From positions 23,949 through 87,948 of the forward strand of contig CAVKMU010000005.1 in NCBI GenBank assembly GCA_963657455.1: 64,000 nucleotides of DNA. The letters are read 5' to 3'. The position numbers and the translations under genes were made by a program. Each line of letters begins with the position of its first letter. Within the stretch, counting starts at the first letter, position 1. This stretch comes from a bacterium (lineage in GTDB: Bacteria > Bacteroidota > Bacteroidia > Bacteroidales > Tannerellaceae). Shown here in pieces: positions 1,263 to 58,521 of the stretch. The notes beneath the pieces are model-generated. The model did not search any database, was not told where the DNA came from, and worked only from the letters and a program-made list of their open reading frames with translations.

Positions 1263-1390
1263 CTTCCGATGATTCTGACAACCATTCGGGTATTGCCAAA
1301 AAATTTCTCCCGAGATGATGGCAGTTAATTCGGGAGAAAACCGGAGTTTCATGCCGAATAAACTGCAGTTTTATGCCGAGAAACTTTTTG
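1263..1390. repeat. 22-bp lattice repeat array A (palindromic-linker type)
   Basis: 7-mer cores at 1263 CTTCCGA, 1286 TCGGGTA, 1307 CTCCCGA, 1330 TCGGGAG, 1351 ATGCCGA, 1373 ATGCCGA; linker AAACTGCAGTTT at 1360-1371. Confidence 0.85.
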
Positions 1391-1478
1391 GAAACTCTGC
1401 TATTATTTTTCACAACATGGGATAGTTGTGGAAGAATGGTCGTCAAGAAGAGGTTGTAAAGATTATTTTTTAAGGAGA

Positions 1479-1510
1479 TTTGGCAAGATGAGATAAAATC
1501 TCTAACTTTG
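1479..1510 (+). promoter_or_regulatory. Bacteroidetes housekeeping-sigma promoter of pyrG
   Basis: TTTG (1479-1482), 20-nt spacer, TAACTTTG (1503-1510); matches the -33/-7 consensus TTTG-N19-21-TAnnTTTG. Confidence 0.75.
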
Positions 1511-1528
1511 CCCTTTTGATTCAGATAG

Positions 1529-1590
1529 CGTTCAAAAGTACGTTTTTTTCCGGCAATTTCCGGCCGGCGAAGAGTGTACTCGATTGGATG
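1529..1590 (+). promoter_or_regulatory. long hairpin in the pyrG 5' leader (candidate cis-regulatory RNA)
   Basis: 1537-1554 pairs with 1563-1580 (17 of 18 positions, 4 G-U); outer stem 1529-1535 with 1584-1590. Confidence 0.5.
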
Positions 1591-1635
1591 AATTGAGACA
1601 GAACAATATTAAAAGACAACTAAAATAGTTTTATC

Positions 1636-55182: not shown

Positions 55183-56264
55183 AACGAATAATAACGATAG
55201 TCGGGGCACGGCCTCAGTTTGTTAAAGCGGCCATGCTTAGCCGAGCCATCTCAGAAGCCAACGGAAAAGAACCCCGAATTGAAGAAAAATTGATTCACAC
55301 AGGACAACATTACGACGAAAACATGAGTCAGATTTTCTTCTCAGAGATGGGAATCCTCCGACCGACTTGGCAACTGCATTGCGGAAACCATTCACACGGA
55401 GCCATGACAGGGCAGATGTTGATGGACATTGAACAGATTCTTTTGGAGAATCGACCTGACTATGTAGTCGTTTATGGTGATACCAATTCCACCTTGGCCG
55501 GAGCATTGGCGGCAGCCAAGTTACATATTCCGGTCGTTCATATCGAAGCCGGTCTGAGAAGTTTCAACAAAGAGATGCCCGAAGAGATCAACCGTATCCT
55601 GACCGATCACGTAGCAACGCTGCTTTGTTGTCCAACACAAACAGCCGTAGAGAACCTACAAAAAGAGAACATTACGGAAGGTGTGCATCAAGTGGGCGAC
55701 ATCATGTTCGATGCAGCCCTGGCTTTCGGTCAAGAAGCAGAGAAACACTCTTCCATTTTGCAGTCGCTCAATCTGCAACCGAAAACGTTCTTGCTCTGCA
55801 CTGTCCATCGGGCAGAGAACACTGATAGTCGAGAACGGCTGACATCCATCTGCCGGGCCTTGATGAAGATTGCAGACGGTGGCGATCGAATCATCCTTCC
55901 GTTGCATCCCCGTACCAAACGTTTTTTAGAGATGTACGAATTGATCGGAGACTTACAACGCCATCCTCGGATCTGTTTCACTGAGCCATTAGGTTTTTTG
56001 GACATGGTTATGTTGGAGAAATCGGCCAAGACGATATTAACTGATTCGGGAGGTGTGCAAAAAGAAGCCTATTTTCATCGGACACCCTGCATTACACTTC
56101 GAGAAGAGACGGAATGGATTGAAACAATCACCGCCGGATGGAATCAGTTGGCAGGTTATCAAACAGAAAAAATAGTGAACTGTTTGACGACACACCCCGA
56201 ACGAAAAGAGATTTATGAATATGGCGATGGAAACACCGCCCGCAAGATATTAGCATTGTTATGA
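55179..56264 (+). CDS. wecB: UDP-N-acetylglucosamine 2-epimerase (non-hydrolysing) family
   Basis: GARPQFVK, HTGQHYD, GDTNST, HIEAGLRS, PEEINR, TDSGGVQKEA. Confidence 0.92.
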   Translation: MKRIITIVGARPQFVKAAMLSRAISEANGKEPRIEEKLIHTGQHYDENMSQIFFSEMGILRPTWQLHCGNHSHGAMTGQMLMDIEQILLENRPDYVVVYGDTNSTLAGALAAAKLHIPVVHIEAGLRSFNKEMPEEINRILTDHVATLLCCPTQTAVENLQKENITEGVHQVGDIMFDAALAFGQEAEKHSSILQSLNLQPKTFLLCTVHRAENTDSRERLTSICRALMKIADGGDRIILPLHPRTKRFLEMYELIGDLQRHPRICFTEPLGFLDMVMLEKSAKTILTDSGGVQKEAYFHRTPCITLREETEWIETITAGWNQLAGYQTEKIVNCLTTHPERKEIYEYGDGNTARKILALL

Positions 56265-57502
56265 AACGAGTATTGATCTTATGCGACCTTTTTCCGCCAG
56301 CCTTTGGCCCACGAATGGGCTACCTTTGCAAGTACTTGGCACAAACAGATTGGACACCCGTCGTTGTGTCGGAGAAGGTTGCGGCTTGTAACTTCCAATT
56401 TTTGGCAGATAGTTGTGAGGTGCATACGGTCAACTACTACCCATCCGACAACAAAATTCTCAACAAATTGCGTTGGATACATCTCCATTTTTGCTCGCTG
56501 TTTACCGACAAAAAGAGCCAACAGTTAGCACAACGAGCCGAACAGCTCTTGCAACAACAGCCTTTCGACTTGATTCTTTGCAGCAGTTACCGCACCTTTC
56601 CGCTACCGGCAGCCGAGCAATTGGCCGAGAAGTATCACCTTCCGCTCATTGTTGACTTGAGGGATATCATCGAACAGTACAGCGGCAATGAATTTATCAG
56701 TCATGCGTTGCCAAATATCCCTATTCTAAAAGATTGGATCATCAAACGATTCAAACAAAAGAACTTGTCTATCCGCAACCGAATTCTCAAGAAAGCAGCT
56801 TGCGTAACGACAGTTTCCGAATGGCATCAGCAATGGTTGCAACAATTCAACCCGCAAACACACCTGATTTACAACGGTTATGACCCAGAACTCTTCCATC
56901 CGGAGCAGAAAAAGACGGACCGCTTCATCATCACCTATACAGGGCGGCTGCTGAGTACGGCCATGCGCGACCCGTTGCTTTTCTTCAAAGGATTAAAGAG
57001 TCTTCAATTGCAGGGCATTCTCTCGCCCGACTTCTGCCGCGTCTATTGGTATGTCGACGAAGCATCGTGGAAAGTAATTGAAACAGAAGCCCGACGGCAT
57101 GGAGTTGAAGCATTTATGGAAATGAAAGGATATGTTCCGGCCTCCGATATACCCACCGTATTGAACAGCAGTTCGGTACTTCTTCTTCTCACCAACAAGT
57201 CGACAGGAGATGGCCCCAAAGGGGTCATGACTACCAAACTGTTCGAGTCGCTTGCCGTGGAAAAACCGATTCTTTGCGTCCGCAATGATGAGGGAGTACT
57301 GGAGCAAGTATTGCGAAACACCAACGCAGGCATCGCAGCCGGCACAGTAAAAGAGGTGTGCGACTTCTTGCAAGCCGCGTTCGATATGTGGTGTAAGCAA
57401 GGATACACATCGTCCAACATCTTGAAAGATAGCCTGAAGCTCTACTCTCGAAAAGAGCAAGCACAGCAGTTTGTCCGATTGTTTGAACAATATAAAAAAT
57501 AG
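56261..57502 (+). CDS. GT-B glycosyltransferase (GT4-like)
   Basis: FPP..R, DLRD, IYNGYD, ITYTG, KLFESL...KPIL. Confidence 0.82.
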   Translation: MKRVLILCDLFPPAFGPRMGYLCKYLAQTDWTPVVVSEKVAACNFQFLADSCEVHTVNYYPSDNKILNKLRWIHLHFCSLFTDKKSQQLAQRAEQLLQQQPFDLILCSSYRTFPLPAAEQLAEKYHLPLIVDLRDIIEQYSGNEFISHALPNIPILKDWIIKRFKQKNLSIRNRILKKAACVTTVSEWHQQWLQQFNPQTHLIYNGYDPELFHPEQKKTDRFIITYTGRLLSTAMRDPLLFFKGLKSLQLQGILSPDFCRVYWYVDEASWKVIETEARRHGVEAFMEMKGYVPASDIPTVLNSSSVLLLLTNKSTGDGPKGVMTTKLFESLAVEKPILCVRNDEGVLEQVLRNTNAGIAAGTVKEVCDFLQAAFDMWCKQGYTSSNILKDSLKLYSRKEQAQQFVRLFEQYKK

Positions 57503-57508
57503 AGACCT

Positions 57509-58396
57509 ATGATCTCGATTTTGATCCCGACCTACAACTACGATTGTCGTCCGTTGATATACGAGATGCACCGACAGGCAACTGCCGAAAACGTTCCTTT
57601 CGAAATTATCGTGGCCGACGACCACTCCACCGACGATGTGCTGGCAAACTATAAAGAGTTGCCCTCCATCGCACATTGCCGTTTCGTTGCTCTGCCCACA
57701 AACATAGGGCCTGCCAACATACGCAACTTCTTGGTCGATGAAGCCCGCTACCCATATTGCTTGCTGATGGATGCCGACACCTTCCCTGCTTCGTCCGACT
57801 TCCTGCATCAATACTTGCAAGCCGCACGAAAAGGAAGCATCATCTGTGGTGGGTTTGTTTACGAACGGACAGCGCATCCGTCGATGTGTGCGCTGCGCTA
57901 TAAATATGGCATTCATGTGGAAGAACGTACGGCATCGGAACGAAACAAACGGCCCTATGCCCAGTTTATCAGCATGTGTTTTCTGACTGATAAAGAACTG
58001 TTTAAGCAAGTACGATTAGACGAGCAGATGCACTTTGGATATGAGGATTGCAACTTCGGCATCCGTTTGCAAAAGCAACAGATACCACTGCTTCATATCG
58101 ACAATCCGGTCTATCATCGGACGACGGACTCGGCTGCCGATTATCTGCAAAAGATTGAGCGGTCGATAGAGAATCTGCTGCCACACCTCGACAGCATGAA
58201 ATCTTACATTCGGCTGCTGCAGTGGCATAGTTGTCTCGAAAAATATCATCTGACAGCATTAACAACGACTGTTTTCCGCATGAGTCGCCCTCTTCTACGT
58301 CATAATCTGAAGAGCAACCACCCTCTTCTCTCCTTTTTCGCCTTCTATAAATTGGGCTATCTCTGCTATCTTCTGAAAAGAGATCAGCGTATATGA
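57509..58396 (+). CDS. GT2 glycosyltransferase
   Basis: SILIPTYN, DDHS, DAD motif, GYED. Confidence 0.88.
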   Translation: MISILIPTYNYDCRPLIYEMHRQATAENVPFEIIVADDHSTDDVLANYKELPSIAHCRFVALPTNIGPANIRNFLVDEARYPYCLLMDADTFPASSDFLHQYLQAARKGSIICGGFVYERTAHPSMCALRYKYGIHVEERTASERNKRPYAQFISMCFLTDKELFKQVRLDEQMHFGYEDCNFGIRLQKQQIPLLHIDNPVYHRTTDSAADYLQKIERSIENLLPHLDSMKSYIRLLQWHSCLEKYHLTALTTTVFRMSRPLLRHNLKSNHPLLSFFAFYKLGYLCYLLKRDQRI

Positions 58397-58405
58397 AAAA
58401 GGCAT

Positions 58406-58521
58406 TCGGCAGTTTCTAAAAGTTTTCTCGGGAGCAAACTGCAGTTTTCTCCGCATGAAACTCCAGTTCACACCCGTATAAACTACCGTTAATACGAATG
58501 ATATTTTTTGTTTGGTGTCGA
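58406..58521. repeat. 22-bp lattice repeat array E (palindromic-linker type)
   Basis: Cores 58406 TCGGCAG, 58428 TCGGGAG, 58450 TCCGCAT, 58471 CACCCGT, 58515 GTGTCGA; linkers at 58436 AAACTGCAGTTT, 58458 AAACTCCAGTTC, 58480 AAACTACCGTTA. Confidence 0.85.

What the first reader, a model, noticed from the sequence alone, without database searches (positions are those of the whole stretch)
1263..58521. Dispersed intergenic repeat system: orientation-flippable 7-bp cores on a 22-bp lattice
Seen: nine intergenic regions (starting near 1263, 5234, 8905, 18134, 27858, 36191, 40966, 50472 and 58406) each carry 4-6 copies of a core like CTCCCGA/ATGCCGA or its reverse complement. Start-to-start spacing is 22 bp for same-orientation neighbours, 23 for forward-to-reverse and 21 for reverse-to-forward, which is what a 22-bp unit lying in either orientation would give. 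I saw one off-by-one exception (36279). Phase is conserved even where the linker sequence is not. Arrays sit between convergent, divergent and tandem genes of unrelated function, about one per 7 kb, and I noticed none inside a CDS. Inference: this is not a single regulon. It looks like a genome-wide REP/BIME-like element or a phased protein-loading site (22 bp is about two helical turns, so cores face the same side of the helix). I do not recognise it as a named element, but cannot confirm novelty.
Basis: partly seen in the sequence, partly recalled or inferred. Interest (0 to 1): 0.85.

Follow-up and report, generated by a model that had tools for sequence, protein, structure and literature searches.

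The report
Evenly spaced 22-bp palindrome arrays
This gut-type Bacteroidales chromosome carries short rows of exactly spaced 22-base palindromes that sit between genes and keep a few kilobases apart from each other; they are built like the private docking rows in front of a little-understood family of HU-like DNA-binding proteins, so they may mark the chromosome into regular segments, but the protein that reads these particular rows was not found.

Summary
All nine arrays are real: 3-6 pseudo-palindromic 22-bp units (central CC/GG) on one exact lattice, in three sequence subtypes, all intergenic. The organism is Parabacteroides-like. A 94-97% identical sister genome holds about one array per 9 kb (122 in 1.15 Mb). 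Arrays avoid each other at kilobase range, across subtypes: 2 gaps under 3 kb against 26 expected. This repeats in the window and in a complete related chromosome with other families; published Pseudomonas REPs show no such pattern. Hairpin or terminator function is not supported. Arrays of the same build lie in front of 96 of 107 HU-HIG-winged-helix genes, vary with the recognition helix, and have solo copies across the chromosome. Against: the window's three families match no HU leader, and the sister genome has no such gene. Best reading: orphan docking lattices of the HU-wHTH class, spread as small non-autonomous elements and spaced by an exclusion zone. How they move and what they do is inferred, not shown.

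The parts
1256..1387 (.). Array 1, subtype A, 6 units (centres 1266-1376; + - + - + +), between divergent DUF3089 and pyrG, upstream of the pyrG promoter-like box
5226..5313 (.). Array 2, subtype B, 4 units (- + + +), 43 bp after the yidC stop; the first two units form a long perfect inverted pair
8903..8990 (.). Array 3, subtype C (variant arms, long A/T tracts), 4 units (- - - +), between co-directional acyltransferase and nitrilase genes
18126..18213 (.). Array 4, subtype A, 4 units (- + + +), between divergent HATPase gene and atpD
27850..27981 (.). Array 5, subtype A, 6 units (- + + - + +), after speA and a separate terminator-like hairpin
36184..36271 (.). Array 6, subtype B, 4 units (+ + + -), convergent gap; one further core at 36279 is 1 bp off the lattice
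40959..41068 (.). Array 7, subtype A, 5 units (all +), convergent gap after mutY; the sister genome has one extra whole 22-bp unit, inverted
50464..50529 (.). Array 8, subtype B, 3 units (- + -), divergent gap between ECF sigma and FMN reductase genes
58398..58485 (.). Array 9, subtype A, 4 units (- - - +), directly after the GT2 stop; a further in-phase unit near 58518

Best explanation
The arrays are solo members of a Bacteroidales class of protein-docking lattices. SHOWN: arrays of mostly four pseudo-palindromic 22-bp units lie in the leader of nearly every HU-HIG-winged-helix gene, each gene with its own sequence; solo copies of such families are scattered between genes; arrays exclude one another over about 3-4 kb in this lineage and about 5-7 kb in a relative, across families. 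INFERRED: each 22-bp unit is the footprint of one two-fold symmetric HU-wHTH dimer (HU arms at the dyad, one winged helix per half-site), which is why the phase is kept while the orientation is free. The founding array autoregulates the gene. Copies spread as small non-autonomous elements into gaps outside promoters. A protein-loaded array blocks, or removes the benefit of, a second array nearby, so the chromosome ends up marked at near-regular intervals.
For: 96 of 107 distinct HU-wHTH genes have an array within 300 bp upstream (66 of 75, all period 22; 30 of 32, 23 at 22 and 7 at 21), against 0 of 72 downstream stretches, 0 of 225 shuffles and 2 of 11 short HU-HIG genes; 4 of 5 in named Bacteroides/Phocaeicola records. 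Array similarity follows the recognition helix more than the HU domain (partial r 0.28 against 0.16; the best of 32 eight-residue windows is the start of that helix). The model shows an HU fold plus a winged helix. The family in front of G001's one intact gene occurs at 20 places on that chromosome. 9 of 27 solo arrays found without a model match an HU-leader family. Solo arrays and leaders have the same build: unit identity 0.71 and 0.74, palindromicity 0.59 and 0.65, mode four units. HU-linked and unlinked families exclude each other in G001 (1 against 5.5 expected, P 0.015), so they behave as one class. DNA-level behaviour: divergent gaps 30 of 99, convergent 34 of 98; no strand bias, 103 against 96; lattice-breaking indels 0-1 in 754 bases against 24 events in 4392 other intergenic bases. 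Exclusion; the promoter control is flat.
Against: The window's nine arrays match no HU leader better than chance (0.43-0.53; null mean 0.45, 95th percentile 0.57). G005 has no HU-wHTH or HU-Ig gene (an incomplete assembly). In G091, which has both type-A arrays and about 20 HU-HIG genes, no listed type-A hit lies just upstream of such a gene (17 of 117 hits were not listed). The two largest families of the complete chromosome G001 also lack a wHTH partner. 18 of 27 solo arrays match no leader. Substitutions in arrays (10.2%) are only modestly below four-fold sites (14.9%) and above other intergenic DNA (6.8%). Four same-gap doublets of different families exist in G001. Gene and leader are inherited together, so covariation does not prove binding. 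No binding, expression or mobility was measured, and HU-wHTH has no catalytic domain that would move an array.
Confidence: 0.55

Rival explanations
1. Purely selfish MITE-like elements moved in trans by an unidentified transposase or recombinase with target immunity (as recalled for Mu, Tn7 and Tn3); the units are that enzyme's binding sites and the HU link concerns other families only.
For: Bounded elements with inverted ends (type A; G001 family D1); lineage-specific bursts (59 strict matches in G005, 0 in four relatives); a sharp step in occupancy near 3 kb; copies inside open reading frames in relatives; unrelated families at the same pyrG-upstream site in 13 of 65 loci; no reader gene for A/B/C.
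Against: No excess of target-site duplications; no pair of D1 ends enclosing a gene-sized stretch among 82 end matches in the complete chromosome G001; exclusion acts across unrelated families; G005 has no RAYT and two tyrosine recombinases only. Other transposase families were not searched.
Confidence: 0.2
2. REP/BIME-like RNA hairpins that end or stabilise transcripts.
For: Arrays fold far better than shuffled sequence (about -20 against -12 kcal/mol), lie close to stop codons (median near 57 bp), and array 2 forms a long perfect stem after yidC.
Against: As common in divergent as in convergent gaps; perfect palindromes across the linker are avoided (type A 2 against 15.9 expected; type B 3 against 11.5); type A folds less well than random assemblies of its own units (-20.8 against -23.5), type B about the same; RNA folding needs no fixed 22-bp phase and no kilobase spacing; REPs were random beyond 200 bp in P. 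fluorescens (PMC3116915, passages).
Confidence: 0.08
3. Self-marking or molecular-drive sites: one array per DNA fragment favours its uptake, transfer or protection, so a second array within one fragment length gains nothing.
For: Uptake sequences are described as more evenly spread than random (PMC2817400, passage); families are lineage-specific; HU-HIG was proposed to act in conflict with invasive DNA (PMC5499826, passages); type-A arrays are essentially absent from viral contigs and plasmids.
Against: Uptake sequences are short, non-palindromic, arise by mutation and occur in genes; cross-family exclusion needs a shared reader; no uptake, transfer or restriction gene is linked.
Confidence: 0.1
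4. Spacing is a by-product: arrays recombine with each other, close pairs delete the genes between them and merge, and only distant pairs persist.
For: An Abi_2 cassette lies between two near-identical direct type-B copies 1.2 kb apart (L092); units are mosaic; same-gap doublets exist.
Against: The deficit holds between subtypes and families with little shared sequence and is step-like (2 of 165 below 3 kb, background level from 4.5 kb), where loss of non-essential genes would predict a gradual decline. The cassette is a single case.
Confidence: 0.07

Closest known systems
HU-HIG clade, wHTH subclade (Pfam PF18291; Burroughs et al. 2017, PMC5499826, passages read)
   Same: Lineage-specific expansions, rapid divergence, no operon links; wHTH predicted to add DNA contacts.
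   Different: The paper calls them unlikely to be sequence-specific transcription factors; 'palindrom' and 'upstream' occur 0 times in its main text. Here 96 of 107 have a private leader array. The window's own families have no identified reader.
BrickBuilt minisatellite/MITE of Porphyromonas gingivalis (Klein et al. 2015, PMC4596501, passages read)
   Same: Bacteroidales, intergenic, imperfect 23-nt units, whole-unit gain and loss between strains; one copy (BrickBuilt_14) is listed beside a PF00216 DNA-binding gene; the paper also cites unlocated 22-nt repeats in strain W83.
   Different: 19 copies, direct repeats up to 22.8 units, leader and tail with IS-like terminal repeats. Here about 300 copies per genome (extrapolated), 22 bp, 3-7 units in random orientation, no leader or tail, kilobase exclusion.
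REP/BIME/REPIN with RAYT (PMC3733652 and PMC3116915, passages read)
   Same: Hundreds of short intergenic palindromes in clusters, lineage-specific families, a single cognate gene per family as an organising idea.
   Different: No GTAG/CGTC tag, no RAYT in 4 of 5 genomes, no convergent bias, hairpins avoided, fixed helical phase, non-random kilobase spacing; the linked gene is a DNA-binding protein, not an HUH nuclease.
Dispersed sites and centromere-like arrays of sequence-specific chromosome proteins (matS/MatP, NBS/Noc, parC/ParR; recalled, from no call)
   Same: Symmetric sites for a dimer; phased tandem loading and autoregulation (parC); many chromosomal sites (matS, NBS).
   Different: Those are one conserved motif per protein, or one locus. 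Here many unrelated families turn over quickly and share one spacing rule.
PINSR of Prevotella intermedia (PMC4755523, passages read)
   Same: About 180 intergenic copies in a Bacteroidales lineage, no coding function.
   Different: Described as a 188-bp unit without terminal repeats; no internal lattice is mentioned in the passages seen. Its sequence is in a figure and was not compared.

Membership tests
REP/BIME (RAYT-associated) | Terminal GTAG or CGTC tag | tested here: not met
   Absent from the unit and end consensus; GTAG/CTAC anywhere in 30 of 122 arrays, CGTC/GACG in 10 of 122.
REP/BIME (RAYT-associated) | RAYT gene in the genome, flanked by the repeat | tested here: not met
   PF01797 absent from G005, G025, G057 and complete G001; 2 hits in G061, one with a 22-bp array of another sequence nearby. 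G005 is incomplete.
REP/BIME (RAYT-associated) | Bias to convergent and co-directional gaps; hairpin-forming doublets | tested here: not met
   34 of 98 convergent, 30 of 99 divergent, 45 of 601 co-directional; perfect pairs depleted.
BrickBuilt | 23-nt direct repeats in one orientation | tested here: not met
   Spacing 22 in 301 cases, 23 in none; orientation random.
BrickBuilt | Leader and tail segments with IS-like terminal inverted repeats | tested here: not met
   Flank consensus fades within about one to two units of the lattice; no long shared flanks among 122 arrays.
MITE | Terminal inverted repeats | tested here: inconclusive
   Type A has an inverted end consensus of about 20 bp, but it is itself a lattice unit; type B ends are weak.
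MITE | Target-site duplication | tested here: not met
   Shared direct words of 8 or more: A 3 against 4.3 expected, B 3 against 1.9. No empty site was available; short duplications in A/T tracts would be missed.
MITE | Autonomous partner with the same ends | tested here: inconclusive
   None for D1 in complete G001; not testable for A/B/C without a closed genome.
HU-wHTH leader-array class | Three to six pseudo-palindromic units at period 22 (or 21) | tested here: met
HU-wHTH leader-array class | Shares the kilobase exclusion with HU-linked families | tested here: met
   Shown in G001 for the HU-linked family against D1 and D2, which resemble subtypes B/C by eye; shown among A, B and C in G005.
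HU-wHTH leader-array class | A cognate gene carries the same family in its leader | tested here: not met
   No match among 89 period-22 leaders; no gene in G005; none upstream in G091.
HU-wHTH leader-array class | Sequence-specific binding by the protein | not testable with these tools
   Only covariation and a fold model.
CRISPR array or Rfam RNA | Constant repeat with unique spacers, or an Rfam match | tested here: not met
   No Rfam match in the window; the whole 22-bp unit is repeat, with no spacer.

The most novel reading that the evidence does not exclude
Bacteroidales have an undescribed chromosome-marking system. Fast-evolving HU-winged-helix paralogues each read a private 22-bp lattice; the lattices spread through the chromosome and space themselves by a shared exclusion zone of a few kilobases, cutting the genome into near-regular segments (topological domains or self marks). 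Families outlive their reader genes, as A, B and C may have done.
Probability: 0.3. Interest if true: 0.92.

Novelty: new variant of a known kind. Interest (0 to 1): 0.78.

Why it matters
It gives a direct test of what the expanded, function-less HU-HIG proteins of gut Bacteroidales do: each comes with a predicted DNA site, against the published view that they are not sequence-specific. The pairs of helix and site form a natural recognition-code dataset. The kilobase exclusion between dispersed repeats of unrelated sequence differs from the random placement reported for REPs and points to an active spacing mechanism on the chromosome, either a new form of target immunity or selection for regular domain boundaries. 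Practically, the arrays break assemblies and produce spurious small ORFs in these genomes.

Tried and rejected
The window's whole genome was not available, so a sister assembly (G005) stood in; about 1.15 of its 2.9 Mb were examined. No close strain in metagenome contigs (best 63% protein identity), so no empty sites. No sequencing run was listed; this is no evidence on expression. Viral contigs: 0 matches to a strict type-A pattern; 85 matches to a loose three-core pattern, of which the 80 inspected were generic 11/22-bp direct repeats; 1 chance match; no HU-wHTH relative. Plasmids: no match to array 5. RAYT as mover: rejected. Tyrosine integrases as partner: arrays at 2 of 30 loci. HU-Ig as reader: none in G005, none next to type-A hits in G091. 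A G005 gene with promoter box, array and start codon in leader order: none in the sample. My terminator control for the spacing test found only 3 sites and was uninformative. The built-in control was void (the pattern reads the same backwards); period controls came from model-free scans. A conserved positional function upstream of pyrG: only 13 of 65 loci carry an array. No complex prediction was run. Literature: ten full-text searches listed no description of this repeat class, of its HU link or of its spacing; subscription papers are not covered, and I opened no supplements (those of PMC5499826 and the MITE catalogue PMC11602168 could hold such sequences unnamed).
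Full report
Observation. The nine arrays are present at the stated places. 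Each unit is a pseudo-palindrome with a central CC or GG, and the centres lie on an exact 22-bp lattice. A matrix trained only on loci of another assembly finds 19 pairs at 22 bp in the window, 1 at 21, none at 20, 23 or 24, none in coding DNA; shuffled intergenic DNA gives 0.02. The flanking genes are unrelated housekeeping genes. There is no Rfam or tRNA match.

Source and copy number. YidC places the window among Parabacteroides-like Tannerellaceae; the closest record is 98% identical although its title names another genus. That assembly (G005) is 93-98% identical to the window over the nine aligned blocks. It has 59 strict three-core matches where four relatives have none. In 1,151,473 bases of it I found 122 arrays (81 subtype A, 41 subtype B) and one or none at periods 20, 21, 23 and 24; strong units were 22 bp apart 301 times, 21 bp 3 times, 23 bp never. 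A model-free scan added 18 non-coding period-22 hits, nearly all subtype C. That extrapolates to about 300 arrays per genome. One array was called inside a reading frame, next to an assembly gap.

Anatomy and turnover. Subtype A has a palindromic linker and an inverted end consensus; B and C have A/T-tract linkers; A and B share the core T[GC]CCGA. Orientation of successive units is close to random. Neighbouring arms avoid being perfect complements (A: 2 against 15.9 expected; B: 3 against 11.5 over 7 bases), while the two central linker bases covary strongly. All nine window arrays have orthologues in G005, two of them cut by contig ends. Array 7 differs by one whole inverted unit and array 6 by blocks; no clear flip was seen in 35 aligned units. 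Substitutions: arrays 77 of 754, other intergenic DNA 299 of 4374, four-fold sites 981 of 6596. Small indels: one at an array edge, against 24 events in 4392 other intergenic bases. There is no excess of target-site duplications.

Placement. Arrays occupy 34 of 98 convergent, 30 of 99 divergent and 45 of 601 co-directional gaps. They lie near stops and far from starts; a promoter-like box (recalled Bacteroidetes consensus) lies between array and gene on 85 of 122 5' sides and on the far side in 19. Type A folds less well than random assemblies of its own units. This argues for a DNA-level role.

Spacing. With arrays reassigned at random among gaps of the same orientation and length class, 20.4 +/- 3.5 gaps under 3 kb are expected and 1 of 58 is seen; with subtype C included, 2 of 72 against 26.3, CV 0.41 against 0.79. 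The deficit holds between different subtypes (6 against 19.8 under 4 kb) and under three further nulls. Occupancy of eligible gaps near an array is 2 of 63 at 0.3-1.5 kb, 2 of 102 at 1.5-3 kb, 20 of 97 at 3-4.5 kb and about 0.35 beyond, against a base of 0.31. The Abi-flanking pair at 1.2 kb lies at a locus edge and is not in these counts. Promoter-bearing gaps show no deficit. In the window alone the CV is 0.34 against 0.72 +/- 0.16 (P 0.004), though the count under 4 kb is not significant there. In a contiguous 450 kb of the complete chromosome G001, with other families, the smallest gap is 7.1 kb against 1.6 +/- 0.9. Genome-wide, three families (105 sites after merging 4 same-gap doublets) give 3 gaps under 5 kb against 16.5 under a uniform null. 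For P. fluorescens REPs no deviation from random was found beyond 200 bp (PMC3116915, passages).

The wider class. A scan without any motif, over 61 Tannerellaceae loci (1.03 Mb), gave palindromic arrays at period 22 (18), 21 (10) and 23 (2) and almost none elsewhere, with unrelated sequences. The type-A frame occurs in 15 of 182 family genomes, sometimes inside reading frames. A two-hexamer frame that I recalled from Bacteroides-type genomes matched 3 of 251 order genomes, with the same core.

The HU link. Arrays were present at 19 of 30 loci of an HU-HIG search and 2 of 30 integrase loci. The signal comes from the 200-215-residue HU-HIG plus winged-helix subclade, found in 103 of 182 family genomes. 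Of 107 distinct genes, 96 have an array in the 300 bp upstream, 89 at period 22 and 7 at 21. These genes were the best-scoring or hand-picked ones of about 380 matches, not a random draw; three with too little upstream DNA and exact duplicates were dropped. Controls: 0 of 72 downstream, 0 of 225 shuffles, 2 of 11 short HU-HIG genes. Four of 5 named Bacteroides/Phocaeicola genes pass and the fifth is just below. A promoter-like box precedes the array in 47 of 69 and follows it in 3, which fits autorepression. Array similarity tracks the recognition helix (69 genes). The leader family of G001's intact gene has 19 solo copies, and 9 of 27 solo arrays match some leader. Burroughs et al. (PMC5499826, passages) judged these proteins unlikely to be sequence-specific. 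I reached this link; one search then showed that earlier notes of the scan report it on other DNA.

The gap in the argument. The window's families match no leader above chance. G005 has no HU-wHTH or HU-Ig gene. In G091 no listed type-A hit is upstream of an HU-HIG gene, and the two largest families of G001 lack a wHTH partner. The high-copy families seem to be the orphans. So these arrays work like HU-wHTH docking lattices and share their build and spacing rule, but membership through a cognate gene is not met.

Mechanism. Shown: lattice, placement, exclusion, class-level HU link, covariation. Inferred: one dimer per 22 bp, autoregulation, spread as non-autonomous units by an unknown enzyme or by ectopic recombination, and exclusion by the bound complex or by selection for regular marks. 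Target immunity in Mu and Tn7 and supercoil domains of roughly 10 kb are recalled comparisons from no call. I give this reading 0.55, an enzyme-driven selfish element with immunity 0.2, self-marking 0.1, RNA hairpins 0.08, and purging by recombination 0.07; the first two overlap.

Novelty. The closest described element is BrickBuilt (PMC4596501, passages), one copy of which sits beside an HU-family gene; it fails the tests of period, orientation and ends. REP/BIME membership fails on tag, RAYT and placement (PMC3733652, passages). Ten searches of the held library listed no account of the class; one search of the scan's notes found nothing on even spacing. I file it as a new variant of dispersed palindromic repeats and phased operator arrays, with a 0.3 chance that it is a new chromosome-marking system. 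Interest 0.78.

Noticed in passing
L092:100-1420 (G005): An AT-rich Abi_2 (PF07751) anti-phage gene lies between two near-identical direct copies of a type-B array with a shared short flank, the best-matching type-B pair of the sample; it looks like integration at, or duplication of, an array.
   Followed up: partly
L191:3059-6595 (G050): A type-A-like array is read in frame inside a 1178-residue methylase that looks like BREX PglX (name recalled; Pfam gives Eco57I/N6 methylase); not compared with homologues. Similar in-frame cases in L558 and L571.
   Followed up: partly
L412, L417, L421 (G001): Three copies of a 153-residue glycine-tailed HU-HIG gene in a duplicated segment of about 1.5 kb, each with a 21-bp D1 array about 220 bp upstream; D1 resembles subtype B/C with a core one base shorter.
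   Followed up: partly
L588, L589, L595, L596, L601, L602, L606: One HU-wHTH clade (mostly with a CTYY helix start) has period-21 leaders, so the period itself seems to be set by the protein clade.
   Followed up: partly
L003, L015, L019, L020, L023, L026, L030, L034, L035, L040, L047 (upstream of pyrG): Unrelated array families occupy the same gap as window array 1, 126-291 bp before the start codon.
   Followed up: yes
L101-L180 (viral contigs): Many phage contigs of diverse G+C hold short 11- or 22-bp direct-repeat rows with a T[GC]CCGA core, often near contig ends; unrelated to the window's families as far as inspected.
   Followed up: no
L001 and L016 record titles: Two records titled Agathobaculum sp. 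and Phocaeicola vulgatus encode YidC proteins 98% and 82% identical to the window's and group with Parabacteroides hits; the titles look wrong.
   Followed up: no
   Followed up: yes
L289, L306, L083, L094, L559 ends: Assembly contigs often end inside arrays.
   Followed up: no
L551: A 12-bp tandem repeat beside a weak winged-helix match in G005; not examined.
   Followed up: no
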